Shown piece after piece: positions 29,801 to 64,000 of a stretch of DNA of 64,000 nt. The notes under the pieces were generated by a model, which ran no database searches, was not told the origin of the DNA, and saw only the letters and a program-made list of their open reading frames with translations. Within the stretch, counting starts at the first letter, position 1, and each line of letters begins with the position of its first letter. The DNA comes from Paraspadella gotoi. Taxonomy: Eukaryota; Animalia; Chaetognatha. The DNA is taken from NCBI GenBank assembly GCA_051294375.1, contig CM119269.1, forward strand, positions 9,794,782 to 9,858,781, given 5' to 3'. Position numbers and translations under genes: made by a program.

Positions 29801-31244
29801 ATATACTCTTTCAACGCCTTGACACGCGTTGAGTTGTTGGTCTTGTTCTTTTGTAAAGAAAAGAAATTTTAAAATTTTATCGTGGAATAAATAAGAAATG
29901 CAGTTACTTTTCAAATTTAATTTTGTTATTCATAATGTAATAACAATGTTAGGAATGAATAATTTAAAATGTCAGTTATGAGTGATAAAGTACTGGTATT
30001 GATGATAATAATTAAATAAAATGATATTTTATTTTCTTTTGATGCATTAATTTTTTTTGAAAGAAGGGAGCCTAGGAATTTTTTTCGTTTGCGTCACGAG
30101 TTTGAATCTCGAAGGAGAAAGAAGAAAAAGACGAAACCAAAAGAGATCATTTACGAATCAATATCCACTTTTGTTTTTTAGAAACGAAACATATTATAGT
30201 CACAAACTAAACCCAACTCATTTAAAAAACGTTAACAAACTAAAAAGTAAAAAGTTAAGATATCCCTTAACCATAATAAATAAATAGAAAAAATATACCA
30301 AATTAATATCAATTTATATATATGAGTATTAAATAATAAAATTCAAATATCTAAAATAGTGTAAAAAAGGAAATTTTTACATTTTCATATTTTCTCGATC
30401 TTATCACTTCCCAATAAAATTAAATATTTAAATAATAAAATTTTAAGATTTGAAATAGGGAAAAAAAATAATTTTATTTTTCATTATGACATATTCTTCC
30501 ATTCTTTCTCCATCACTTTCCCAATTTTTGTCTTCTCGTTTTTCTCCTCTCTCGCTCCCCCCCACAACCTTTCCACTCCACTCTCTCCGCTCCACTCTCT
30601 CGGCTCCACTCAGGAGGAAGAGGAGCGGGTCCGCCGAGAGGAGGAGGAGGAAGAGGGCGACTCCGACTGGAGGAGGAAGAGAAAAAAAGAAGAAGCCAAA
30701 GAGAGAATTGATTTTTCCTCATTCGAGAAAAAAAAGACGAAATTAGGAAAAATCGCGAAGATGAAGATTCGATACAAGAGATTCGTTAAATGGGATGAAT
30801 TTTCAAAGGTTTGGGGGGGGGTTTACTGGGGTGCACGGGGGGTGAGGGAGGTGAGGTGAAGGTTTGGGACAGGTGGAGGATGGTCCCTTGTAGGGGAAGT
30901 TTGTAAGGTAGTAAAAGGAAATTTGAGTTAAAGTGAAGTAAATTAAAGTAAAATATAGTAAATTAAAGTAAAGTACGGTATTTAAAGTAGGATGGTAAAT
31001 GAAACTAAATTCATAACGCGGAGTAAAACAAAACACTCGATTTCAAAAAGTAGGAAAAAAAATGTTCGAGTCAGATTTAAAATGGAATCTGTACATCAAA
31101 AAAAAAAAACATTTAAAAATTGAAGGCGATTCAACTTTATGTGGATAAACAATACACTGGTCAAGATATCCTCTGGCTTTCATGACGCTGGATCCGAAAT
31201 GGGATTACGAGTTGGAACCGGTGGGTGAATGTAAATAGGGAATC

Positions 31245-31278
<34 letters not shown>

Positions 31279-31799
31279 TTAACGACAGGTCGGCCTATGG
31301 CGCGGATCAACCTCTGGTTCCGACGGACGAGATCGACAAACGCGATCGTTCATTGGTTCATCATGAATCGACAGGTGACCAATCAGATCAAAGACGAACC
31401 TTCCTTAAGGGAACCCAGTGATAAAAATGATATTCATCAAGCTTAAGGGTCTATCATCAAAGGAATTTGAATGGTGATAGTCACTAAAAAGTTAAACAAT
31501 TAAATTTCTATTAATCGTTTCGTCCGTTTATTTGTCCAAATTTAAAATTAATCTAATTTAAAATATCATATTTAATTTGTTACGCCTTAATTCTGAATTT
31601 CTAAAACTAGAGCCCCATTGTCTTAACTTTTACAGGAACGGTTCTTAGAAAAAGAGGCGAAACGCTTCATCAAACTGGCAGACTTCAAGAAGGAGACTTT
31701 CTTCAACTACAAGAGTTAATCAGCGACATGTGCTACGAGGCCAACTATGACATGGGTGTGCCCAAGAAGAAGAAGAAGCTGGTGTCAAGGAGACCGTGA
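20687..31799 (+). CDS. Calmodulin-like EF-hand protein B (tandem paralog of A)
   Basis: Exons 20687-20792, 20866-20996 (131 nt, same length as in A), 21549-21670, 22639-~22888, 30614-30808, 31126-31220, 31289-31374 and 31636-31799; same exon layout as A and both end ...PKKKK..VKET*. Several frameshifts, probably assembly indels. Confidence 0.75.
23638..30070 (+). mobile_element. Non-autonomous LTR-type element (5' LTR, PBS, PPT; 3' LTR missing)
   Basis: LTR 23638-23924 bounded by TGTCA...TGACA; PBS TGGTGGCATCG at 23925 (complementary to a tRNA-Leu 3' end, one mismatch); PPT GAAAGAAGGGAG at 30059-30070. The flanks are joined without the insert at ~33745-33755. No recognisable gag/pol. Confidence 0.7.
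25706..26269 (+). CDS. Hypothetical 187-aa ORF inside the LTR element
   Basis: ATG-initiated, GC-rich, not low-complexity; no recognisable domain. Confidence 0.3.
   Translation: MDFKLSYLDSQLSSPQSSRGPEPFASHTFLTGLRMRLLNYVWEKVANRPGDEPPGFADHQDSVRRLQRTEQERQLSAARIDDFAVLDAQQQSASLVLFLFTLNGRKAALATAAADGQRSKKSYVSFWIESSRAVQSLKDGWKEIHDFFSGPIVRKRRARRAPQRRPLFPGIRCRVPKRFLMNFKVLN
31409..31484. mobile_element. Terminal fragment of the Kolobok-like element (also 35096-35168)
   Basis: TTAA-GGGAACCCAGTGATAAAAATGATAT...GGTGATAGTCA matches one end of 51607-52489. Confidence 0.75.
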
Positions 31800-32134
31800 G
31801 AAGGAGGAGGAGGAGGAAGACGAGTCTGCGATGAAGAGTCTGTTTTCATGAGCTGATTTTTTTTTAAAAAAAGTGTGTCAAATGTAAATCTAAATGTGAT
31901 TGTTAGTAGTAAAGTTATTAGTAAATAAAATTTTATCTGCCGTAAATTATAGAATGTCCGAAATTGCTTCTGCTTTTAATTTTTGTTGGGGGGGTAGCAT
32001 GAGCTCTTTATTAACCCACAAACGTCACCCCGCCCTTGGAAAACGCCGCATTGATACAACGCCGAGGACCTCTCCACGCCAACGCCGGAATTGACGCCAC
32101 GTCATATCCATCTCGAACCAGCGTCACTTCCCAC

Positions 32135-34930
32135 CTGTGCGGCCCCGTGTCAAAAGACGAAGTGGGTCCCTGATGCCAAGTCCAAGTCTAAATCATCGGC
32201 GTCGTCTTGGGTCCAACCGCCGAGTCCGAATTCAAAATTGTCGCGCAGAGGAAAGTGGAATGCATTGTTTGGGAAGTTCGTCCCAGTAGTCACCGCAATC
32301 GTCTGGTTTTAATGAGGGAGGGTTGAGAAAAAATAAGAAGTTGGGGAGAAAGGAGGGAAAAAATACGTCATTTAAATATCGATTAAACGATATCACAAAA
32401 TTATGATGATCAATCATGAGTTTTTTTATGTCCCACGACACGAATTGAAAAGGTCGGACGGTCTCGTTTGCCAACGCAGAGGGAAGTCATTAGACTGTGG
32501 ATGGAACACAACGCCTGGGATGGTGTGTTCCCCCTCTGAGCCAAAGGTACGACCGTGAACGTGAGGTGGTGTGAATATACCGCCACAGTAGTAATCTTTT
32601 GACGTCATAATATGTTCGACGAACTTTTTTTTTCTTTTTAATATATAGATATTAAATAAGCATTAGAAAACCATTCAGGCCGCGAACACGCCATTCTCTC
32701 ACCCGTATAGTCGCAAAGACGATCGACCGCCACGCAGGATCCGCGCGTGCAAGTTTTCTCCCACGGGTTGCACTTTTTTCTGACGGGCGGGAGGGGCGCA
32801 GTCGAAGAAGGAAAAGTCGTCCAGGCCGAAGTCCGCGCGGGCACCGTACAGTTTTTGGGCCTTAGTAGGGCAGGCGGGGGAGGAGAGTATTGTGGGATGG
32901 AATGAGGTGAAATGATAAGGAAAGGGATAAAGTCATAAGGGAAGAAAGTTAAATTGGGACGGTTCGACAAGTCAACTTATCATCTAATACCTTGGCCAGG
33001 ATGCAATTCAAAACTGACACGATCCAAGAGAGTAAACGACAAGATGCAAGAGTTAACCGATGTTATGTTTAACCATAATGTGTAACCATTCGCATACAGC
33101 TATATCGACCTGTTATAGTGGTGCTTTCATCTGTTATAAAAAACTTAATCTATGTTTAATTTTTAAAAGTGTTCTCTTGGCGGACCTTTATCAGAGGTTT
33201 CTTAGATCATTCACTTGCAAGGCCAACCCTATTTAATCGAATAATTCACATCGCCATTAATTACCTCACCAATAATTAATTGATTAATTGACCTTACCGT
33301 TAACTTGAATCCTAAAAGGTTTTCCACTCGCCCGATGTAGATTCTCCAGATTCTCCAAGTTTTGTCTCTCCATCCGTCGAAACATCTTGAAGAGCAGCAC
33401 CGAGTCGTGACCTTAATTCATTTGTATTAAAATGTAAAAAAAATATTAGAAAAAAGTCTTAGCTTTAAAACAAAATACAACAACAATATATTGGCTCTTC
33501 AAAACCTAAGACAATTGAAATCCCTCGCAATATAAAAAAATCTGCCAATCTCTCACCGGAAATGTTCATATAAAATCTTAAAGTATCCAATGTGGAATCC
33601 ATATTGCTGAACCANNNNNNNNNNNNNNNNNNNNNNNNNGAGTCAACCTTCATGCCAAATTTTATCAAATTCGATTGAAAAGTTTGTGCAGAACCGATTC
33701 TCGGTTTGAAAAACGGTGTATCATTTTCTCATATGAAGCCTTCAGTATTCAATTTTTTCGTTTGCGTCACGAGTTTGAATCTCGGAGGAGAAAGAAGAAA
33801 AGACGAAACCAAAAGAGATCATTTACGAATCAATATCCACTTTTGTTTTTTAGAAACGAAACATATTATAGTCACAAACTAAACCCAACTCATTTAAAAA
33901 ACGTTAACAAACTAAAAAGTAAAAAGTTAAGATATCCCCTTACCATAATAAATAAATAGAAAAAATATACCAAATTAATATCAATTTATATATATGAGTA
34001 TTAAAATAATAAAATTCAAATATCTAAAATAGTGTAAAAAAAGGAATTTTTACATTTTCATATTTTCTCGATCTTATCACTTCCCAATAAAATTAAATAT
34101 TTAAATAATAAAATTTTAAGATTTGAAATAGGGAAAAAAATAATTTTATTTTTCAATTGACATATTTTCTCCATCTTTCTCCATCTTTCTCCATCACTTC
34201 CCAATTTTGTCTTCTCGTTTTTCTCCTCTCTCGCTCCCCCCCCCACAACCTTTCCACTCCACTCTCTCCGCTCCACTCTCTCGGCTCCACTCAGGAGGAA
34301 GAGGAGCGGGTCCGCCGAGAGGAGGAGGAGGAAGAGGAGCGACTCCGACTGGAGGAGGAAGAGAAAAAGAAGAAGAAGCCAAAGAGAGAATTGATTTTTC
34401 CTCATTCGAGGAAAAAAGACGAAATTAAGAAAATCGCGAAGATGAAGATTCGATACAAGAGATTCGTTAAATGGGATGAATTTTCAAAGGTTTGGGGGGG
34501 GGTTTACTGGGGGTGCACGGGGGGTGAGGGAGGTGAGGTGAAGGGTTTGGGGACAGGTGGAGGATGGTCCCTTGTAGGGGAAGTTTGTAAGGTAGTAAAA
34601 GGAAATTTGAGTTAAAGTGAAGTAAATTAAAGTAAAATATAGTAAATTAAAGTAAAGTACGGTAATTTAAAGTAGGATGGTAAATGAAACTAAATTCATA
34701 ACGCGGAGTAAAACAAAACACTCGATTTCAAAAAAGTAGGAAAAAAAATGTTCGAGTCAGATTTAAAAATGGAATCTGTACATCAAAAAAAAAAAACATT
34801 TAAAAATTGAGGCGATTCAACTTTATGTGGATAAACAATACACTGGTCAAGATATCCTCTGGCTTTCATGACGCTGGATCCGAAATGGGATTACGAGTTG
34901 GAACCGGTGGGTGAATGTAAATAGGGAATC

Positions 34931-34964
<34 letters not shown>

Positions 34965-37900
34965 TTAACGACAGGTCTGGCCTATGGCGCGGATCAACCT
35001 CTGGTTCCGACGGACGAGATCGACAAACGCGATCGTTCATTGGTTCATCATGAATCGACAGGTGACCAATCAGATCAAAGACGAACCTTCCTTAAGGGAA
35101 CCCAGTGATAAAAATGATATCATAAGCTTAAGGGTCTATCATCAAAGGAATTTGAATGGTGATAGTCACTAAAAAGTTAAACAATTAAATTTCTATTAAT
35201 CGTTTCGTCCGTTTATTTGTCCAAATTAAAATTAATCTAATTTAAAAATTATATTAATTTGTTACGTTTAATTCTGAATTTCTAAAACAGAGCCCCATTG
35301 TCTTAACTTTTACAGGAACGGTTCTTAGAAAAAGAGGCGAAACGCTTCATCAAACTGGCAGACTTCAAGAAGGAGACTTTCTTCAACTACAAAGAGTTAA
35401 TCAGCGACATGTGCTACGAGGCCAACTATGACATGGGTGTGCCCAAGAAGAAGAAGAAGCTGGTTGTCAAGGAGACGTGAGAAGGAGGAGGAGGAGGAAG
35501 ACGAGTCTGCGATGAAGAGTCTGTTTCATGAGCTGATTTTTTTTAAAAAAAAGTGTGTCAAATGTAAATCTAAATGTGATTGTTAGTAGTAAAGTTATTA
35601 GTAAATAAAAATTTTATCTGCGTAAATTATAGAATGTCCGAAATTGCTTCTGCTTTTAATTTTTGTTGGGGGGGTAGCATGAGCTCTTTATTAACCCACA
35701 AACGTCACCCCGCCCTTGGAAAACGCCGCATTGATACAACGCCGAGGACCTCTCCACGCCAACGCCGAATTGACGCCACGTCATATCCATCTCGAACCAG
35801 CGTCACCTTCCCACCTGTGCGGCCCCGTGTCAAAAGACGAAGTGGGTCCCTGATGCCAAGTCCAGTCTAAATCATCGGCGTCGTCTTGGGTCCAACCGCC
35901 GAGTCCGAATTCAAAATTGTCGCGCAGAGGAAAGTGGATGCATTGTTTGGGAAGTTCGTCCCAGTAGTCACCGCAATCGTCTGGTTTTAATGAGGGAGGG
36001 TTGAGAAAAAATAAGAGTTGGGGAGAAAGGGAGGGAAAAATACGTCATTTAAATATCGATTAAACGATATCACAAAATTATGATGATCAATCATGAGTTT
36101 TTTTATGTCCCACGACACGAATTGAAAGGACGGACGGTCTCGATTTGCCAACGCAGAGGGAAGTCGTTAGGACTGTGGATGGAACACAACGCCTGGGATG
36201 GTGTGTTCCCCCTCTGAGCCAAAGGTACGACCGTGAACGTGAGGTGGTGTGAATATACCGCCACAGTAGTAATCTTTTGACGTCATAATATGTTCGACGA
36301 ACTTTTTTTTTCTTTTTTATATATAGATATTAAATAAGCATTAGAAAACCATTCAGGCCGCGAACACGCCATTCTCTCACCCGTATAGTCGCAAAGACGA
36401 TCGACCGCCACGCAGGATCCGCGCGTGCAAGTTTTCTCCCACGGGTTGCACTTTTTTCTGACGGGCGGGAGGGCGCAGTCGAAGAAGGAAAAGTCGTCCA
36501 GGCCGAAGTCCGCGCGGGCACCGTACAGTTTTTGGGCCTTAGTAGGGCAGGCGGGGGAGGAGAGTATTGTGGGATGGAATGAGGTGAAATGATAAGGGAA
36601 AGGGATAAGTCATAAGGGAAGAAAGTTAAAATTGGGACGGTTCGACAAGTCAACTTATCATCTAATACCTTGGCCAGGAAGCAATTCAAAACTGACACGA
36701 TCCAAAGAGAGTAAACGACAAGATGCAAGAGTTAACCGATGTTATGTTTAACCATAATGTGTAACCATTCGCATACAGCTATATCACCCTGTTATAGTGG
36801 TGCTTCATCCTGTTATAAAAAACTAATCTATGTTTAATTTTTAAAGTGTTCTCTTGGCGGACCTTTATCAGAGGTTTCTAGATCATCACTTGCAAAGGCC
36901 AACCCTATTTAATCGAATAATTCACATCGCCATTAATTACCTCACCAATAATTAATTGATTAATTGACCTTACCTTAACTTGAATCCTAAAAGGCTTTTC
37001 CACTCGCCCGATGTAGATTCTTCCAGATTCCCAAGTTTTGTCTCTCCATCCGTCGAACTCTTGGAAGAGCAGCACCGAGTCGTGACCTTAATTCATTTGT
37101 ATTAAAATGTAAAAAAATATTAGAAAAAGTCTTTAGCTTTAAAACAAAATACAACAAAATAATTGGCTCTTCAAACCTAAGACAATTTGAAATCCCTCGC
37201 AATATAAAAAAAATCTGCCAATCTCTCACCGGAAATGTTCATATAAATCTTAAAGTATCCAATGTGGAATCCATAATTGCTGAACCAAAAATCCATCATG
37301 CAACCCGCGCCGGCGTGTTGGAAAAGGGGACTCTCCAACACGGCCACCTGATGTTGAATTGGAGGAAATTATTGTTATCGTTTTCGGAAGGCAATGAAAG
37401 TACTCTCCCGTCGCGTTCTCTCCTCGACCCCCCCCCTCGTCAACTCACGTCGTCGGCATGACCCAAATCTCCGTGAGTCGCGAGGTAAGTTCCAGAGGAG
37501 TCGCCAATTTTGCCGAGGGTGTGGTCGGAGTCTGGACCCGTGAAGTTGGTCGTGGTTGGACCCACTTGAGTGGACCATTTGAAGGGGCCTTTGCTGGTGT
37601 CCTACAGAGGGGGTGGAATTGAAGAAAAAAAGAGAAGATAGAGAAACGAGATAATGGGAAAAAAAATTTGACGAGAACATACATGCATATAAATTATAAT
37701 ACAAACATGTATTTCATCGTTATACAGCGTAAGGGAAAAACAATTTCCGTTTTTCCAGATATTTCGACATATTTTTAAGTCATCGTAAGTAAACCTAATA
37801 ATTATGAAGAGAGAAAANNNNNNNNNNNNNNNNNNNNNNNNNNNNNNNNNNNNNNNNNNNNNNNNNNNNNNNNNNNNNNNNNNNNNNNNNNNNNNNNNNN

Positions 37901-41194: not shown

Positions 41195-41360
41195 AACTCT
41201 ATATTTGGGCTGTATGTTGACTTGGATATAACGATATAGCGTATCGGATCCGGGGCTTTGAAACCTGGGTTGGGGTTTTACGCGCTCCCAACGCTTGGCT
41301 GAAGGGCATCTACCGGGTAGGGATCGACCCCGGTAGCTTAGGGTCAGGAGATGATTCCTT
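41195..41360 (-). mobile_element. Degraded relative of the repeat at 52940-53170
   Basis: Shares TTGGG...AAAACCCCAA-c-CCaGG-TTtC-AAaGC-CCcGG and TACAGCCC segments with that element; tRNA-like head. Confidence 0.45.
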
Positions 41361-41722
41361 CAATCAATTCATTTAATCACGATTCAGGAAACCACGATTA
41401 GGATGAACTGGGCAATGCCCGCTACATTTACTGGTAAAAGTCACGTGGACCAATAGGATATTTTAAATTATTGATAATAAATTAAAATGGACAATGAAAT
41501 ACTCGTACTCACGTCCTCTTCGTGTCATCCATTCTGGTTCAGAATTGATGACCTTAAAAAACAGATTATAAAATCCGAAGTTTAAATTCGAAATTTATGT
41601 CGTAAGGCGAACGGAAAAATCAGCGCGGAATTTTGACGAAAAACGAGTTTATGAAAAAACTAACCGTTTTAACGCAATTGAGAAATTCTGTTGAAACCTG
41701 ATTCAAGTTAGAGAGAGTCGGG

Positions 41723-42479: not shown

Positions 42480-54299
<11,820 letters not shown>

Positions 54300-55307
54300 N
54301 NNNNNNNNNNNNNNNNNNNNNNNNGGGGCGAAAAGAGAGGGGGAAGTAATTAAAAGAGAGGAGAAAAGGAAAAAAAAAGATAGAGGGGAAGTTGAGATGA
54401 GAGAGGACGAAAAGAGAGTAAAGAAAGAGGACGACTCACCGATGATTTGAATCACGAAATTTTTTGTTGAGTGAAACTCAACAGCAGCTTCTTTCCATTC
54501 GGTGCCCATGGATTTGTTTTGGCTGAGAAAACAAAAACAAAGTTAAGAAGCNNNNNNNNNNNNNNNNNNNNNNNNNNNNNNNNNNNNNNNNNNNNNNNNN
54601 NNNNNNNNNNNNNNNNNNNNNNNNNNNNNNNNNNNNNNNNNNNNNNNNNNNNNNNNNNNNNNNNNNNNNNNNNNNNNNNNNNNNNNNNNNNNNNNNNNNN
54701 NNNNNNNNNNNNNNNNNNNNNNNNNNNNNNNNNNNNNNNNNGGAAGAGTAGTAAAGGGTCTTCATCCCCAGTCCAGAGAAAAGCCTTCAGCGAACCAATT
54801 GACTGTCCGTTCATGTGATAAGCGAATTGAAGGCAGCCAATCTTCATGGGAGTGTAAACCGTGGAGGCGAACCTGGATGATCAATCAATCAAACAATCAA
54901 TCAATCAATCAAACAATAAAAAAACCCAAATAATTTACCAAACAGCGATTATATCAAAAAATTAACCAATCAATCAAACATTTAAACCATCGTTTAAAAC
55001 GATCAATTAATCTGACACTAAATCAATCAATCACCTAATTAATTATCTTTATCATTTAAACAATATGTTAGTCAGTCAGTCGGTCAATGAATAAACCGAA
55101 CAATCAGTCANNNNNNNNNNNNNNNNNNNNNNNNNNNNNNNNNNNNNNNNNNNNNNNNNNNNNNNNNNNNNNNNNNNNNNNNNNNNNNNNNNNNNNNNNN
55201 NNNNNNNNNNNNNNNNNNNNNNNNNNNNNNNNNNNNNNNNNNNNNNNNNNNNNNNNNNNNNNNNNNNNNNNNNNNNNNNNNNNNNNNNNNNNNNNNNNNN
55301 NNNNNNC

Positions 55308-55529
<222 letters not shown>

Positions 55530-58272
55530 TCACCCCGTCTATAAGACTCATTGAGTAATACCATCAGCTCATAACCATGAGGTGTACCGGGAATCGTTAG
55601 GACGGCCGTAAACCGCCTTGGGGGCCCGGAAAAACCCCAAGCCTGGTTCCAAGCCCAGGGCACGTTCAAAGGCTGCTAGAGGCGGTTAAAGAAGTTGCGG
55701 ATAGCGCTCTACAGCCCCACTTAGCGCCTTGCACATTTTTAAGTTTAATAATGAGGTTAAAGATGAGGGATAAGGAGTAGGTTGTGGATTTTATTTAGGT
55801 TTTGGTTAGAGTTATGGTTTAAGCTTTAAGGTTAAAAAATAAAGCTTAGTATTATGGTGGACTAAAATCCACCAACCGTTCATCAAATTTTTTCAAATTA
55901 TCTAAATTTTATTTTATTTATTAAAGTTTATTTATTAATAAAATTTTAATCTCTTAAATTATATATTTCCTAAATTTCTTCTTTCTTTTAATTTTTCTCT
56001 TTTGTTTTATTCATTATCTCTTTATTAATCCCACAAACTTCACCCCCCTCACTTTTTTAAAAACTCCTTTTCATTTTTAATACAACTCCTATTTACCTCT
56101 CCACTCCACTTCCAATTTTACTCCACTGTCATAAATCCATGCCCTCTTAACCACTTCACCTTCGCCACCTGTTCTTTCCCTTTTCAAAAATACTAATTTT
56201 TCCCTTATTCCAATTCCGATTCTAAATCATCTATCTTCTTCTTTTTTCTCAACCTCTCCTTTATTCCTAATTCAAAAATTTTCTTTTCTCATATTAAATT
56301 TTAAATTTTCATTTTTTTTAATTCTTCCCATTATCTACATCACCTTCCTCAATCATTTCCTTTTTTAATTATTTTTTATGAAAAAAATAAGATAGTTTTT
56401 AAACGAGTTATTTAAAAATACGTCATTTAAATATCATTAAACATATATCACAAATAATTATATATCAATCATGAGTTTTTTTTATCTTCCACTACAATTT
56501 AAAGTCGTACGTTCTCCATTTCCAAACGTCAGAATGGAAGTCCATTAGTACTGTGGTGTGTAAACACACGCACTGGTATGTTTTTTTCCCCCTCTTTAGT
56601 CCCAAAGTTTACGTACGCTTAAGCTTTATGTTGTTTTTTATACACGCTCACAGTTAGTTAATCTTTTAACTTCATAATATGTTTCGTACGTAACTTTTTT
56701 TTTTTTTTTAATATAGTATATTAAATAATCATTAAAAACCATTCAGTCCGCAACACCCATTCTTCACCCTTATAGTCGCAAATAGGGGTACGATCGTACC
56801 GCCACGTCATTATCCGCCTCTGTCAAGTTTTTTCTCCCACGTGTTTTCACTTTTTTCTACGGTCGGTAGGGTTCCAGTATCGAAAAAGGTAAAAGTCGTC
56901 CAGGTCTAAGTCCCGTCGTCTCAACGTTTACAGTTTTTGGTTTTCCTTATTAGTTGTCACGGGGGTTTTGGATGGTATAGGTGAAGTTAAGTATGTCTAG
57001 AGATAATTATTTAAATTAGAGTTAAATTAGTCATCTTAAATATTCTAAACCTGAGATTTATACTAAACTAATCATTCTACCTTATAACATTCAATTACAC
57101 GATCCAAGAAATTAAACGAAATATGCAAGAGTTTAACCGATGTTATTTTTAACCATTAATGATTAACCATGCGACATACAGCTATTATCACCTCTTTATA
57201 TTTGTCTTCACCTTTATAAAAAACTAATCTATTTTTAATTTTTAAAGTTTTCTCTTCGGTACCTTTATGAATTTTCTAATTCAATCACTTTCAAAGCCAA
57301 CCCTAATTATATCGTAATAATTCACATCGCCATTAATTACCCTCACCAATAATTAAATTTGATTAATTTCTACCTTACCTTAACTAAATCCAAAATCTTT
57401 TCCACTCGTCCCTATTGATTCTTGTCCAATTCCAATTTTGTCTCTCCATCCTTCAACTCTTGGATAACTTCCACATTCTGTACCTTAATTCATTTGTATT
57501 AAATTAAAAAAAATATTAGAAAAAATCTTAACTTTAACAAAATACAACAAAAATAAATCGTCTCTTCAACATAAGACAATTTAATCCCCTCCAATATAAA
57601 GAAAAATCTGCCAATCTCATCACCTTAAAATGTTCATATAAATCTTTAAAGTTAATCCCAATGTGTTAACCATAATTCTGTAACCCAAAATCCATCATGC
57701 AACCCGTCCCGTCTGTTTTAAAATGTACTCTCCAACACGGCCACCTGTATTGTTGAATTGTAGGAAATTATTTTTATCGTTTTCGTCTAAGGTTCAATTA
57801 ATTACTTCTCCCTTCGTCTTTCTCTCCTCGACCCCCCCTCGTTCAACTCACGTACGTCAGTCTCATTACCAACTCATGATTCCCGGTCTCGTATTAATTT
57901 CCAGGAGTAGTCGCTATTTGTCCAGGGTGTGTTTTCGTATCTTACCGTGAAGTTTGTTCGTGTGTTTACCCACTTTTATTGACGATTTAAGGGGCCTTGT
58001 CTGGTTCCTTAAAAGGTGTTAATTGAAAAAAAAAAGTAAGATAATGGGGAAAAAAAAATTTGACTAAACATACATTCATATAATTATAAATACAAAACAT
58101 TTATTCATCTTTATACAGACGTTAAGGGAAAAACAAATTTCGTTTTCCCAATATTTCGACATATTTTTTAGGTCATCGTAATTAAACCTATAATTATGAA
58201 AGAGAGAAAAAGTGAGAGAGAGATTGAGAAAGAGTGTGTGGTGTGAGAGGGAGATGAGAGAGGAGAGAGAGG

Positions 58273-58324
<52 letters not shown>

Positions 58325-58760
58325 TACCGCAATACAAAGAGTTACGATAACTTATATTCCAGTGTATTGACAAATCTCCCATTTATGAAATCTTTCTCGT
58401 TCCAATCCCTTATCTCTTCTCCCCTCTCTGCCCTCTCCCATCTTCCCACTCTCTCTGCCTCTCCCCCTCTCTGCCCTCTCCATCTCCCATCTCTGCCTCA
58501 CTCCCATCTCCCCTCTCTGACCCTCTCCAATCTCCCCCTCTCTGCACTCTGCCATCTCCCCCTCCTACTTGCCCCTCCCATCTCACCCATCTCTGCCTTT
58601 TCATCTCCCCCCTCATATCCCCCCTCTCTCCCCTCTCCCATTCTCAACCTCTTTATGCCGCTCTCCATATCCCCCTATCTCCCTTCCCATATCCCCCTCT
58701 CTCCCTCTCCCATCTCCGCATTCACTCCTCCCTCTCCCCTCTTCCCCCTCCCCTCCTCAC

Positions 58761-59362
58761 CTTCCACCCGCACATCCCCGATCCCGCGTCCTCAAAGTCG
58801 CAGGTTCCGCAGAATCTCTCGTCGGTTCCGTTGATGCAATCGACTTCGAAGTCGCAGACTTTGGAGGCGTCGATCGTCTGGTGCGCCGCAATCGATTCGG
58901 CCGCCGCCGCCGGTGGAGGGACAGGCGGTGGGGGAAAGCAGAAGGTCGTCGATGGCGATGTCCGATGCGAAGTCGGTGCCCACTTCGCCTGGGGGGGGTG
59001 GAGGGAAGGAGGGGGGAGATGAGGAAAAGAGAGAGGAGATGAGGAAAGTAATAAAAAAAATTTGCATTTAAGGAGGTGGGGGCGAAAAGAGAGGGGGAAG
59101 TAATTAAAAGAGAGGAGAAAAGGAAAAAAAAAGATAGAGGGGAAGGTGGGGTGAGAGAGGACGAAAAGAGAGTAAAGAAAGAGGACAACACATTTTGCAT
59201 TGTGTATTTTTCAATCAAAGTCACAATGTTAATGTGAGAATTAACTGACTCACCGATGATTTGAATCACGAAATTTTTTGTTGAGTGAAACTCAACAGCG
59301 AGCTTCTTTCCATTCGGTGCCCATGATTGTTTTGGCTGAGAAAACAAAAACAAAGTTAAGAA

Positions 59363-59407
<45 letters not shown>

Positions 59408-62187
59408 ACTGGAAGAGTAGTAAAGGGTCTTCATCCCCAGTCCAGAGAAAAGCCTTCAGCGAACCAATTGACTGTCCGTTCATGTGATAAGCGAATTGAA
59501 GGCAGCCAATCTTCATGGAGTGTAAACCGTGGAGGCGAACCTGGATGATCAATCAATCAAACAATCAAAAAACCCAAACAATTTATCAAACAGCGATTCT
59601 ATCAAAAAATTAACCAATCAATCAAACATTTAAACCATCGTTTAAAAACGATCAATTAATCTGACACTAAACCAATCAATCACCTAATTAATTATCTTTA
59701 TCATTTAAACAGTATGTTTGTCAGTCAGTCGGTCAATGAATAAACCGAACAATCAGTCAAATTAATATTTAACCAACAAATCAAACAACTAACCAATAGA
59801 TCAACCAATAAATCTCACCAAGCAACGCCGCCGGGCTGTTTCCCAGACGCCTCAATGTATAGTAAGTGTCCTTCCGCCGGGTGGCCGATCGTGTATCTAC
59901 CGAGGGACCAAGTCGCGCCGGAAGGGGTCTCCCCGAAGTGGACCGTCCAGTCGAAGTCGTCCAAGTCCTGCAAGAAGGATGATTTATGGTCCATTATTTT
60001 TCAAAAGCGACTAATTTTAAACTTAAATTCAGAAATATGTTTGTTTTGCAGTTGGCATTGCAATACGTTCAGTAGTTCACCCCGTCTATAAGACTCATTG
60101 AGTAATACCATCAGCTCATAACATTAGGTGTACCGGGAATCGTTAGGACGGCCGTAAACCGCCTTGGGGGCCCGGAAAAACCCCAAGCCTGGTTCCAAGC
60201 CCAGGGCACGTTCAAAGGCTGCTAAGAGCGGTAAAAGAAGTTGCGGATAGCGCTCTACAGCCCCACTTAGCGCCTTGCACATTTTTAAGTTTAATGATGA
60301 GGTTAAAGATGAGGGATTAAGGAGTAGGTTGTGGATTTTTATTTAGTTTTGGTTAGAGTTATGGTTTAAGTTTAAGGTTAAAAAATAAAGCTTAGTATTA
60401 TGGTGGACTAAAATCCACCAACCGTTCATCAGGTGGCCATTGGTGCCGGAGGCAAGTCATTCGCCTCCCAACCAAAGGTCCGGGGTTCCAGCCCGGTGCC
60501 GCCTAGCAGTTAAGAGGGACGGGGCGCTTAACCCGCCTGTAACACGGTGTTACAGCCTGATCCGAAGCTCAGGGACTGCTTATATGAACGGTTCTTGTCC
60601 ANNNNNNNNNNNNNNNNNNNNNNNNNGGTGGCCATTGGTGCCCGGAGGCAGTCATTTCGCCTCCCAACCAAAAGGTCCGGGGGTTCTAGCAGTTTAAGAG
60701 GGACGGGTGCGCTTAACTCGCCTGTAACACGTGTACAGCCTGATCGAAGCTCGGGACTGCTTATATGAACGGTTCTGTCATTAAACACTTATCAAGTAAT
60801 TACTGTCTCTTCAGTATTATGGTTAGAGACTAGGGGTTAAAAATTATGGATTAGGGATAAGGATTGATTAATCTTTTAGAAAAAAAGATAAAATTAGATA
60901 TTTAAGTCAATTTGAAGTTTAAGGGACCCAGTGATAAAAATGATATTCATAAGCTTAAGGGGTCTATCATCAAAGGATTTGAATGGGTGATAGTCATTAA
61001 TTTTTCTTTGCACGGGAAAGTTGGCAAAAAAATTGCCTATCTCTATATTGTACGGAACAAAAATTTAATAATTATGAAAAAAAATTTAGTTGAACCCGTA
61101 CCTAAATATTTATTATAATCCATTATTTTATTTTTGCATTAGAAAGTATTTTTTACTAAATTCCAATTCTTTTATTTTTTACTGTACAAAGCTATAATTT
61201 TAGGTTTAAGCCTCATTGAACAAAGCTTTACAAGACTAATATTTTTTATATTTTTATATTTACTTAAAAGCAGACAAAATCAAATCTTAAATTCTTATTC
61301 TTACAGAAACAAAACTGTAATAATTATTAATTATATTCATATTCATCCCTTAAATGTATAATTAAACTATATTGATTCCTAATTATAACAATTAAAAATT
61401 AGCAAAGTACAGAATCTTTCTCTTTCTTTTATATTTATATTACTTCAAAGAATTTTTATTTTTCATCCAATTAACAGAATCATTTGAAAAGAAGAGTTTA
61501 AATAAAAATCAGTCGATACCTTAAATTTTGATTCATTCCTAGTTTTTTTCTTATTAAAATTTTTGTGATAAAGCCTGAAAATCTTTTTAAAATTAGATCT
61601 ACCCTTTTTTGGAAAAAAAAAATTTTAAACTGAAAAAGATTTTCTTCTTACCAATTTTTTAAAGAAAATTAAAGCGTCGCTGATTTATCGAATTTTTTAC
61701 TACTTTCCAAATGATTATAGAAAGCAAAAATTATATGATCAGAACCAGCTTAAGTTAAAGGTCAAACGTTATGTTTTTCAGCTTTTTACCCCCCCTGTTC
61801 ACTTGGTCCCCTTAAGGATTAGCAATATTTTTCTTTACCTGAATGTTGTGCCAGAGACAATATTCATCCTCAAAATTGCAGTAGCCAGAAGGAGGACATT
61901 CGCCCTCAGCGATAAATACGTCATCCAGTCCTGAATATTTATTTAAAATTAATTAATAAATATAAAACAGTTTTAATGGTTGGAGATCGATTGAATTAGA
62001 ACTTACTCAAATATAATTAATATTTATTTTGTCGTATCCCTTAATTTAATTTTAACCTTAAAATTTAACCTAAACTGTAAACATGTTCTTAACCTAATCT
62101 TGAACCCTAACCTGATCCTAACCCTGACCAAATAAACTTACCGATGTATCCTCTTGGTCCAAGTCCGATCTCAGCCTCGAATTCGAT
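58761..62187 (-). CDS. MAM/LDLa protein exons, minus-strand copy linking the upstream and middle blocks
   Basis: Same exons as 51226-54299, plus the complete exon ~58761-58988 (GEVGTDFASDIAIDD...KVCDFEVDCINGTDERFCGTCDFEDAGSGMCGWK), which continues into DTSKGPFKW. Confidence 0.8.
60505..60580 (+). ncRNA. Twister-like ribozyme fold (P5-type permutation, atypical P1/P2)
   Basis: AGCAGUU-AAGA-GG-GA-CGG-GGCGCU-UAA-CCC-GC-C-[UGUAACA cgg UGUUACA]-G-[CCUGA U CCG AAGC UCAGG]-GACUGCU; T1 CCG/CGG and T2 GC/GC are possible. Confidence 0.55.
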
Positions 62188-63381
62188 CTGGAGGAGGAGG
62201 GGGAAGATGAGGAGAAGAAGAAAAGAAGAGAAGAGGGAGAGGAGATAGAGGAAAAGGAGGAGGGGGAGCCACGGAGAAAGGAGAGAAAAGTTAGGGTAGC
62301 GCGTATGAGAGAGGAAAGAAAGATAGAGGAGAGAGGAAAAAAAAGGTCAGCTTAATTTAACTTCCTCGTTCAGCCAATCATTTCGTCTCTATAACCCGAC
62401 GCAGCTGATTGGTCGAAATACAAAAACCTTAGAAAATCGAAATCGACACTCGGAATGCTCGTTCCGTCCCCCGCTACGTTAATTTTTCATTTTACATTTT
62501 CAAGTTATTATTAGGTCTTAGTTACTTTATTTTTTAAACAATTTTTTTTCTCTCGGTTTTAAGATTTTAAGGTTTTTAAGTTTCGAAAACGTAGTAATTT
62601 GAGCGATAACAGAGAGCGAGATAACGATAGCTAGAGAGGGACAAGAGTCGCAATGCCTGGCGAAGCAGAGCGCGAAGCTTGGGAGGAGGCCTGGCGATGC
62701 ATCTGCAAAGGAATTCCGAGGAGAAGAAGACGGACGATTGCAGCATCTGGATGTCAGAGTATTATTGCAAATCTGCAATGAATTGGGTGAGAGAGAGAAA
62801 GAGAGAGAGAGAGACTCATATGATGTCTTTCAAAAATCTTGATTTTTGTTTATTCAAATCATTGACATATTTCGCGATGAAAATGATGAAAATGAAGACG
62901 ATATGGTGGACTAAAATCCACCAACCGTTCGTCAGCCGGCCATTGGTGCCGAGGCAAGTCGTTCACCTCTCCAACCCCAAAAGGTCCGGGTTCTAGCCCG
63001 GTGGCCGCCTAGCAGTTAAGAGGGACCGGGCGCTTAACCCGCCGTGTAACACGGTGTTACAGCCTGATCCGAAGCTCAGGGACTGCTTATATCAACGTTC
63101 TTCGCTAACACATAACAATTATCACTATCTCCTCAACGATGAACACAATGATTTCGATGATGCTGAGGATTTATTTTCCTCGCCAGAGAAGAAATTCGCA
63201 CAAGAAAGGAAAACAACAGCGAAACTGAAGAAGAAGAAAAAGAGAAGAATTCGATGAACGCGAACAAACACAAGCAATCGGCGAGTGAGCAGCAAAAGGT
63301 GAGTCGGTCGCTCTCTCTCTCTCTTTTTGCAATAAGACTCCAACTCCCGTTCAAATTATCGTTTATCGTTCTCTCTCTCTC

Positions 63382-63449
<68 letters not shown>

Positions 63450-64000
63450 ATCAGGCGCCAAGAAGATAGAGGGCGCGCCACGACATGGACGCTCTCCTCT
63501 CCACGGCGGAGAAATCCCTCATGAAAAGAGTGCAACTTCGAGGGAAAAGAATTTCGTGGGGAAAACTTGGTTCATGGGATTTCCAGGGGGAACTTCCTTC
63601 CCGCCAATGAGGGTGAGTTTGGGAAACTCTCTCTTTTCTGTCATTAACACTTATCAATACTTACTGTCTCTTCAGTATTATGGTTACAGACTAGGGGTTA
63701 AAATTATGGATTAGGGATAAGGATTGGATTAATCTTTTAGAAAAAAGATTAAAATTAGATATTTAAGTCAATTTGAAGTTTTAAGGATTAGCAATATTTT
63801 TCTTTACCTGAATGTTGTGCCAGAGACAATATTCATCCTCAAAATTGCAGTAGCCAGAAGGAGGACATTCGCCCTCAGCGATAAATACGTCATCCAGTCC
63901 TGAATATTTATTTAAAATTAATTAATAAATATAAAACAGTTTTAATGGTTGGAGATCGATTGAATTAGAACTTACTCAAATATAATTTAATATTTATTTT

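What the first reader, a model, noticed from the sequence alone, without database searches (positions are those of the whole stretch)
55578..55668. A second, sequence-unrelated repeat carries the same twister-like architecture with compensatory changes
Seen: family 2 reads CGU-UA-GGA-CGGCCG-UAA-ACC-GC-C-[UUGGGG..CCCCAA]-G-[CCUGG U UCC AAGC CCAGG]-GCAC. The spacing is identical to family 1 (A, 3 nt, 6 nt, UAA, 3 nt, GCC, P3, G, 5-bp P4, 8-nt loop). T1 covaries (GGA/UCC vs CGG/CCG), the first P2 pair covaries (A-U vs C-G), P3 and P4 differ in sequence but still pair, and the 6-nt linker is again a palindrome (CGGCCG). Inference: a conserved RNA motif shared by different tRNA-headed repeats in this genome. 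This copy has U at the general-base G position and an alternative pairing UAAACCGCC/GGCGGUUA, so it may be inactive. The same locus appears at 52940-53170 (-) and 60048-60276.
Basis: partly seen in the sequence, partly recalled or inferred. Interest (0 to 1): 0.75.

Follow-up and report, generated by a model that had tools for sequence, protein, structure and literature searches.

The report
Twister ribozyme relic in solo LTR
This intronic repeat is a decayed copy of an abundant animal repeat family whose other copies keep the hallmark bases of the self-cutting 'twister' RNA in a compact form shared with a second family, so these repeats, likely the end pieces of tiny retrotransposons, are predicted to cut their own RNA, while this copy likely cannot.

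Summary
The motif is real (55594-55659) and far beyond chance. In 4 of 4 sequencing runs, 94-97% of family depth has G at the general-base site 55598. No variant of 3% or more appears at 38 of 38 core positions, against 27 of 88 positions around them. Families 1 and 2 align without gaps outside P3, and 6 of 7 changed pairs are compensatory.

Corrections:
- The three 'copies' are one locus repeated in near-identical blocks, likely an assembly artefact.
- The two cores are probably homologous, not unrelated.
- The element looks like a 237-bp solo LTR (TG...CA, TTTT flanks) in an intron of a MAM/LDLa gene.
- This copy has lost its B box, and a strengthened alternative pairing is predicted to block the core.

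It is a type-P5 twister variant with a bulged 3-bp P2 and a self-complementary 6-mer in place of P1; Rfam score is below threshold. Best reading: a Helenus-like mini-retrotransposon LTR working like a plant retrozyme, with twister in place of hammerhead. Cleavage, circles and paired LTRs are untested here. The scan already reported this system four times on other DNA of this genome.

The parts
55499..55735 (+). Family-2 element, 237 bp, TG...CA ends; likely solo LTR, decayed copy
   Evidence: Ends; a contig in runs X1, X2 and X5 (3 of 4) skips 55500-55739 (table 5)
55495..55498 (+). Left 4-bp flank TTTT (candidate target-site duplication; weak in T-rich DNA)
55736..55739 (+). Right 4-bp flank TTTT
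55540..55590 (+). Remnant of tRNA-like head: anticodon-loop-like CTCATAA at 55568-55574 (Met-like, read by eye); A-box region diverged from abundant copies; about 28-30 nt with a B-box-like motif missing between 55583 and 55588
   Evidence: Loose ends and table 5c; pattern recognition is from my own knowledge of tRNA promoters
55594..55602 (+). P2 3' strand (55594-55597, bulge at 55595), general-base position 55598 (U here, G in other copies), A55599, T1 strand GGA
55603..55608 (+). Self-complementary 6-nt linker CGGCCG in the place of P1
   Evidence: no variant of 3% or more
55609..55617 (+). UAA with predicted cut between U55609 and A55610; P2 5' strand ACC; T2 strand GC
   Evidence: Position by analogy with twister (PMC8501958 passages)
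55617..55641 (+). P3 stem-loop (variable in sequence, pairing kept)
55642..55659 (+). P4 (5 bp) and L4 U-UCC-AAGC, with T1 and T2 partners
55681..55687 (+). Strand that pairs with 55611-55617 in this copy (blocking fold); its C55683 is G in 94-99% of family depth
52936..53172 (-). Same locus again (99% identical, inside an inverted duplicated block)
60047..60281 (+). Same locus again (97% identical, inside a duplicated block)
60399..60601 (+). Family-1 element (tRNA-Gly(CCC)-like head 60431-60505; intact twister-type motif 60505-60580), cut by an N gap
   Evidence: (relaxed ARAGORN)
52601..52820 (-). Family-1 element, duplicate of the 60.4-kb locus; P2 variant CUC keeps pairing as G-U
62902..63112 (+). 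Second family-1 locus (duplicated at 50289-50499, - strand)
55307..55418 (-). Host exon of a MAM/LDLa-domain gene; the element lies in the intron upstream of it, antisense to the gene
   Evidence: Pfam MAM E=5e-4, below curated cut-off; a 7800-nt contig of run X9 leaves the window at 55421

Best explanation
The stretch is a decayed copy of a high-copy repeat whose other copies keep a compact, circularly permuted (type-P5) twister-type motif behind a tRNA-like head; it is likely a solo terminal repeat (LTR) of a small non-coding Helenus-like retrotransposon, and intact copies are predicted to self-cleave. Inferred cycle: RNA polymerase III starts at the tRNA-like promoter in the 5' LTR and reads into the 3' LTR. 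[quoted passage not shown] A helper Gypsy-type element would reverse-transcribe and integrate it with a 4-bp duplication, and LTR-LTR recombination would leave solo LTRs such as this one. This copy is likely dead: U at the general base, a broken third P2 pair, a deleted B box and a strengthened blocking fold. Shown: motif, family conservation, covariation between two families, TG...CA ends, decay of this copy. Inferred: LTR status, Pol III transcription, cleavage, circles, helper.
For: Family majority has G at 55598 in 4 of 4 runs (0.944, 0.950, 0.966, 0.938). 0 of 38 core positions vs 27 of 88 other positions in 55590-55715 carry a variant of 3% or more (Fisher p=2e-5; minor variants only 0 of 38 vs 19 of 88, p=8e-4). 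6 of 7 pairs that differ between families change on both sides; the seventh is this copy's private U55594. P3 varies but keeps pairing (55621/55637: G-U majority, A-U minority, G-C here). Family 1 folds into P3, P4 and P5 with z=-2.28. TG...CA ends, TTTT flanks and an empty-site contig; family-1 loose ends also read TG at the 5' end (3 of 4 runs) and ...CA at the 3' end. Animal Helenus have tRNA-like LTRs, 4-bp duplications and Gypsy-like primer sites (PMC10886601). Natural twisters tolerate P1 and P2 defects, while G-to-U at the general base lowers mean cleavage from 0.76 to 0.34 (PMC11662667 section 32). Family-type sequence is present in run X9, which covers the host exon but not this locus's unique intron; a weak hint of transcription.
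Against: Rfam Twister-P5 scores 16.5 bits against a threshold of 37.6 (E=0.42) and aligns the 5' half wrongly; family 1 gets no twister hit at E<=10. P2 5' strand is 3 nt where Rfam and Schistosoma twisters have 4, and P1 cannot form as a normal hairpin. Nested folding never predicts P2 (probability 0.0) and in family 1 pairs the T1 strand and general base with the P2/T2 strand instead. Only two independent families were compared, so the shuffle counts are not probabilities. Reads need an 80% match and shared words, which favours conserved-looking cores. No paired LTRs, primer site or purine tract were seen for either family in this window; the two family-1 loci show no target-site duplication by eye; TTTT is a weak duplication and the empty-site contig has 4-5 extra bases. 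The tolerance data are for type-P1 twisters only.
Confidence: 0.55

Rival explanations
1. Active twister in a tRNA-headed non-LTR repeat (SINE or Schistosoma-type non-LTR retrozyme), copied by a LINE enzyme; the TG...CA ends are incidental.
For: tRNA-like head followed by a ribozyme, as in schistosome hammerhead repeats that carry a tRNA (PMC4918200 section 10). No paired LTR, primer site or purine tract seen here; family-1 loci lack target duplications.
Against: 36-48 nt lie upstream of the tRNA-like head, which SINEs normally lack (own knowledge). No A-rich or simple-repeat tail. TG...CA ends in both families. Copies are dispersed, not tandem.
Confidence: 0.14
2. LTR element with an active twister that only trims the RNA ends or limits read-through, with no circular intermediate.
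For: Schistosoma T-variant twisters define the 5' end of Perere-3 RNA (PMC8501958 passages). Nothing here shows circles.
Against: A cut in both LTRs leaves a unit-length RNA without a terminal repeat, which ordinary strand transfer needs (own knowledge); plant LTR retrozymes solve this through circles (PMC4918200 abstract, PMC7761336 passages).
Confidence: 0.14
3. The fold is twister-derived but no longer catalytic, and is kept as a dimerisation or packaging signal; the 6-nt palindrome acts like a retroviral dimer-initiation site (recalled analogy).
For: Short bulged P2, no true P1, Rfam below threshold; GC-rich palindrome conserved in both families.
Against: The catalytic G, the A after it, UAA and AAGC are held in the family majority, which a non-catalytic role would not need.
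Confidence: 0.12
4. Chance resemblance or a DNA-level signal: the P4 loop of family 2 (GTTCCAAGC) mimics a B box, and the rest is pattern-fitting.
For: Whole-region folding of this copy is no better than shuffles (z=0.94 and -0.15).
Against: Descriptor almost never fires in shuffles; 0 of 133 public pattern matches pass the pairing test; long-range T1 pairs change on both sides; family 1 lacks the B-box mimic.
Confidence: 0.03

Closest known systems
Twister ribozyme type P5 (Rfam RF02684, clan CL00120)
   Same: Order P2 3' strand, G-A, T1 strand, P1 region, UAA, P2 5' strand, GC, P4 with U-NNN-AAGC loop; T1 and T2 pseudoknots; P5 closing the ends (clear in family 1).
   Different: P2 has 3 bp plus one bulge instead of 4 bp; P1 hairpin replaced by a self-complementary 6-mer; P3 present; 5-bp P4; score 16.5 vs threshold 37.6.
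Helenus TRIMs / TRIMp3 (Kojima 2024, PMC10886601)
   Same: Short LTR with TG...CA ends and an internal tRNA-like sequence; 4-bp duplication in animals; solo LTRs reported for fungal families.
   Different: The paper's main text has 0 occurrences of 'twister' or 'chaetognath' and 'ribozyme' only in a reference. Five short motif searches of its supplement showed no twister-like LTR. By eye Helenus-2_SyJa/SyUm LTRs carry a hammerhead-type core after the tRNA part. Paired LTRs, primer site and purine tract not seen here.
Plant LTR retrozymes (Cervera, Urbina, de la Pena 2016, PMC4918200)
   Same: Non-coding LTR element with a small self-cleaving motif in the LTR and a 4-bp duplication; predicted circular RNA cycle.
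   Different: Hammerhead, not twister; about 350-bp LTRs; no tRNA-like promoter in the LTR; plants; circles shown there, not here.
Schistosoma T-variant twisters of Perere-3 (Liu et al. 2021, PMC8501958)
   Same: Twister with weak or absent P1 in an animal retroelement.
   Different: Type P1, 4-nt P2, at the 5' end of an autonomous non-LTR element; P1 varies with the target site, whereas here the P1 place is a fixed palindrome.
Dimer-cleaving minimal hammerheads (newt repeats; Penelope pseudo-LTRs), as reviewed in PMC7761336
   Same: A helix too short to form in a monomer, completed in a dimer: the model for the palindromic linker.
   Different: Hammerhead class; no natural dimeric twister appeared in my searches.

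Membership tests
Twister ribozyme (type P5) | U|A-A at the cleavage site (general acid A) | tested here: met
   55609-55611; no variant of 3% or more in 4 runs; same in family 1
Twister ribozyme (type P5) | General-base G followed by A, in the family majority | tested here: met
   G in 94-97% of depth in 4 of 4 runs; G in family 1
Twister ribozyme (type P5) | General-base G in this window's copy | tested here: not met
   U55598 in all three assembly copies
Twister ribozyme (type P5) | T1 (3 bp) and T2 (2 bp) pseudoknots to L4 | tested here: met
   T1 has 2 of 3 pairs changed on both sides, T2 invariant
Twister ribozyme (type P5) | P4 hairpin with U-NNN-AAGC loop | tested here: met
   5 of 5 pairs, one changed on both sides
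Twister ribozyme (type P5) | 4-bp P2 | tested here: not met
   3-nt 5' strand; 3 bp plus one bulge in the family majority and family 1; P2 defects tolerated in type-P1 twisters
Twister ribozyme (type P5) | P1 hairpin closing L1 | tested here: not met
   6-nt self-complementary linker with no loop; P1 reported dispensable
Twister ribozyme (type P5) | Rfam RF02684 gathering score | tested here: not met
   16.5 vs 37.6 bits; none for family 1; none at gathering level in the window
Twister ribozyme (type P5) | Self-cleavage at U|A | not testable with these tools
   Only contigs available; no pile-up of ends listed, which contigs cannot show
Helenus TRIM | LTR with TG...CA ends | tested here: met
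   55499 TG, 55735 CA; family-1 loose ends
Helenus TRIM | tRNA-like sequence with A and B boxes inside the LTR | tested here: inconclusive
   B-box-like motif in other family-2 copies but deleted here; family 1 called tRNA-Gly(CCC) only at a relaxed ARAGORN threshold that also gives spurious calls; no Rfam tRNA hit
Helenus TRIM | 4-bp target-site duplication | tested here: inconclusive
   TTTT/TTTT at 1 of 1 family-2 locus, in T-rich DNA; none seen at 2 family-1 loci or at the 41-kb relic
Helenus TRIM | Two LTRs around an internal part with primer site and purine tract, under about 1 kb | not testable with these tools
   No genome held; not present in the window; reported for other families of this genome in unchecked notes
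LTR retrozyme | Hammerhead ribozyme in each LTR | tested here: not met
   Motif is twister-type; no hammerhead hit in Rfam scans
LTR retrozyme | Unit-length circular RNA | not testable with these tools
   No raw RNA reads offered

The most novel reading that the evidence does not exclude
These animal mini-retrotransposons use a natural dimer-dependent twister: the palindromic 6-mer that replaces P1 pairs between the two LTR copies of one transcript (or between two RNAs), so cleavage and circle formation happen efficiently only in full-length elements, while solo LTRs in host introns stay quiet. It would be the twister counterpart of the double hammerhead, in a Pol III-driven LTR retrozyme of an animal. 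For: the linker is invariant in family 2, self-complementary in both families, and its two central bases swap together (GC vs CG) although they cannot pair within one hairpin; 4% of 6-mers in the two elements are self-complementary with G-U allowed. Against: only two families; cofolding gave 0.27 (family 2) and 0.00 (family 1) for the intermolecular helix in a model without pseudoknots; a 2-bp mini-hairpin or no P1 at all may suffice.
Probability: 0.25. Interest if true: 0.85.

Novelty: new variant of a known kind. Interest (0 to 1): 0.58.

Why it matters
LTR retrozymes are described from plants with hammerheads, and twisters in animal retroelements from non-LTR elements. A twister behind a tRNA-type promoter in animal LTRs would show that the cut-and-circularise strategy arose with a second ribozyme class and in animals. 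It would give twister a defined role and add a compact architecture that Rfam misses. The palindromic P1 substitute makes a dimer-gated twister directly testable with a short transcript. The particular copy at 55.5 kb is only a relic, useful as a natural negative control.

Tried and rejected
No genome is held, so no genome-wide copy set or joint covariance model could be built; three distinct window rows are too few for a model, and none was built.

Public collections: viral contigs gave 13 matches, none with full T1 and P4. Metagenomes gave 0 for the specific pattern and 120 for the loose one, 0 of 120 passing; that scan stopped after 43 of 64 parts. Prokaryotic genome contigs were not scanned.

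No RNA holder was on record. X9 is only a guessed RNA run, and contigs show neither strand nor ends.

Cofolding gave no support for the linker dimer in family 1; the model cannot form pseudoknots.

My early idea that family 1 is a Helentron-type non-autonomous element (inner inverted repeat plus terminal hairpin) was dropped after the TG...CA loose ends, but not excluded. Relaxed ARAGORN calls of tRNA-Tyr over the motif were rejected as threshold noise, since the called anticodons fall at non-equivalent places.

Sequence look-ups of both families among earlier findings found 0 look-alike windows, so I cannot say whether they are the families described there.

Literature searches listed no paper whose title or abstract start describes a twister in an LTR/TRIM or a dimeric natural twister. 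I read listings and selected passages only, one search showed 20 of 6085, and subscription papers are mostly missing.

Full report
OBSERVATION. The quoted string is at 55595-55663. A pairing-aware descriptor finds 4 hits in the window (55642, 60188, 60556 on +, 52677 on -). It finds 1 hit in total in 300 dinucleotide shuffles of the window and 0 in 20000 shuffles of the element. Three more copies (53029, 50339, 63063) fail strict spacing through single-base indels. As an outside control, a loose pattern matched 13 viral and 120 metagenome stretches, and 0 of 133 had both full T1 and full P4.

THE THREE COPIES ARE ONE LOCUS. They sit in blocks that include the host exon and both flanks: 55307-55885 matches 52787-53368 (inverted, 98%) and 59853-60431 (95.6%). 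There are 1-9 substitutions and 11-23 gap columns per pair, mostly in homopolymers, and the region has N gaps. I read this as assembly duplication (inference); a recent real duplication is not excluded. Either way there is one insertion. The host is a spliced MAM/LDLa gene on the minus strand (three Pfam hits, all under the curated cut-offs), so an animal.

FAMILY TEST. Nine runs of one organism hold the stretch. I laid 4 of them on 55307-55900 and 4, two of them new, on 60140-60601, at 80% likeness. Depth over the 5' half of the motif is about 520-580 times that of the exon in three DNA runs; the tool warns that this is no copy number, so I take it only as 'many copies'. At 55598 G makes up 0.944, 0.950, 0.966 and 0.938 of the depth. 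Table 3 is complete. It lists no variant of 3% or more at 38 of 38 core positions (55599-55617, 55641-55659), against 27 of 88 other positions in 55590-55715 (p=2e-5). Caveat: matching favours conserved stretches. Position 55594 is G in 83-95%, which gives P2 a third pair around a bulged base, as in family 1. P3 varies and keeps pairing. For family 1, 66 rows's variant table were not shown; among the 40 shown, only two P3-loop positions (60544, 60545) fall in its motif.

BETWEEN FAMILIES. The cores align without gaps outside P3. Of 18 named pairs, 7 differ between 55.5 kb and 60.5 kb. Six change on both sides (one in P2, two in T1, two in the linker, one in P4); the seventh is this copy's private U55594. 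Sliding the partners destroys the signal. With two independent families this is strong but not a statistical proof. With 36 of 66 columns invariant, the cores are probably homologous; the rest of the two elements shows no significant match.

THIS COPY IS DECAYED. It differs from the family majority at 11 positions in 55590-55715, one of them the general base. About 28-30 nt with a B-box-like motif are missing between 55583 and 55588 (tables 5c and 7). C55683, which is G in 94-99% of family depth, completes a 7-bp pairing with 55611-55617, predicted at 0.80-0.95, that hides the P2 and T2 strands. In natural type-P1 twisters G-to-U at the general base lowered mean cleavage from 0.76 to 0.34 (PMC11662667, section 32 read whole), so residual activity is possible but unlikely given the blocking fold.

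WHAT THE ELEMENT IS. After the lead from earlier notes I looked for LTR marks. The element runs from TG at 55499 to CA at 55735 with TTTT on both sides. A contig in 3 of 4 runs skips 55500-55739, with 4 other letters between; it may be an empty allele or a paralogue of the repeated flank. Family-1 loose ends read TG before 60399 in 3 of 4 runs and end in ...CA at the 3' side. Against: TTTT is weak, the two family-1 loci show no duplication by eye, and no paired LTR, primer site or purine tract is in the window. Solo LTR of a Helenus-like element is therefore likely (about 0.75), not shown.

MECHANISM. Shown: motif, conservation, covariation, ends, decay. Inferred: Pol III transcription from the tRNA-like head; a cut between U55609 and A55610 in intact copies; release of a unit from LTR to LTR; ligation to a circle; copying by a Gypsy-type helper. 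In run X9, a guessed RNA run, the exon is covered and unique intron bins are at zero, while family-type sequence is present with G at 55598. This is a weak hint that family members are transcribed and says nothing on strand or cleavage. Rough odds: fold under selection 0.9, cleavage by intact copies 0.75, whole cycle 0.55. The linker self-duplex is -10.7 (family 2) and -8.3 kcal/mol (family 1). Cofolding without pseudoknots gave 0.27 and 0.00 for that helix, so the dimer model stays open at 0.25.

COMPARISON. It works like a type-P5 twister and like an LTR retrozyme. Formal membership fails on the Rfam threshold (16.5 vs 37.6 bits), the 4-bp P2 and the P1 hairpin, so I file it as a twister variant. 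Helenus membership is incomplete.

PAPERS SEEN. PMC10886601: main text parts 1-3 of 6, a term search, supplement parts 1 and 9 of 11 and a five-motif search; the unread parts hold other animal families, and line breaks can split motifs, so a twister in a published Helenus is not excluded. PMC11662667: section 32 and passages. PMC8501958, PMC7761336, PMC10085705, PMC6154101: passages. PMC4918200: abstract and section 10. Roth 2014 and Lunse 2017: not read (recalled, or seen as reference titles). Eight searches listed no description of a twister in an LTR/TRIM or of a dimeric natural twister.

VERDICT. A real, selected twister-type motif in a second repeat family; this copy is a relic. New variant of a known kind; interest 0.58. 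The scan noted the same kind of system four times on other DNA of this genome (unchecked notes).

Noticed in passing
window 41205-41428 (-): Decayed relative of family 2: similar TG start, B-box-like motif, P3- and P4-like hairpins kept, but the half with G-A, T1, linker and UAA is unrecognisable; no target duplication.
   Followed up: partly
window 30080-37287 and 49766-64000: Long near-identical direct and inverted blocks around 25-N gaps; in the three blocks compared, differences are mostly homopolymer indels. Likely long-read gap-filling artefacts, so copy counts in this window are unreliable.
   Followed up: partly
window 55499-55735, 60399-60601, 62902-63112: Within each duplicated block the inserts lie antisense to the MAM/LDLa host gene: 3 of 3 distinct loci, too few to test.
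   Followed up: partly
window 55627-55666: Depth over P3/P4 is about 4-10 times that over the 5' half of the motif in the three DNA runs, so further related families probably share the 3' half.
   Followed up: no
window 60399-60430 and 60586-60596: Family 1 has a short hairpin at its 5' end and an 8-bp inverted repeat enclosing the tRNA and twister parts, which would close the LTR RNA into a rod.
   Followed up: no
PMC10886601 supplement, Helenus-2_SyJa-LTR and Helenus-2_SyUm-LTR: A hammerhead-type core follows the tRNA-like part, seen by eye; the paper's main text does not mention it.
   Followed up: partly
window 47633-47714 (-): Ordinary tRNA-Ser(GCT) gene.
   Followed up: no
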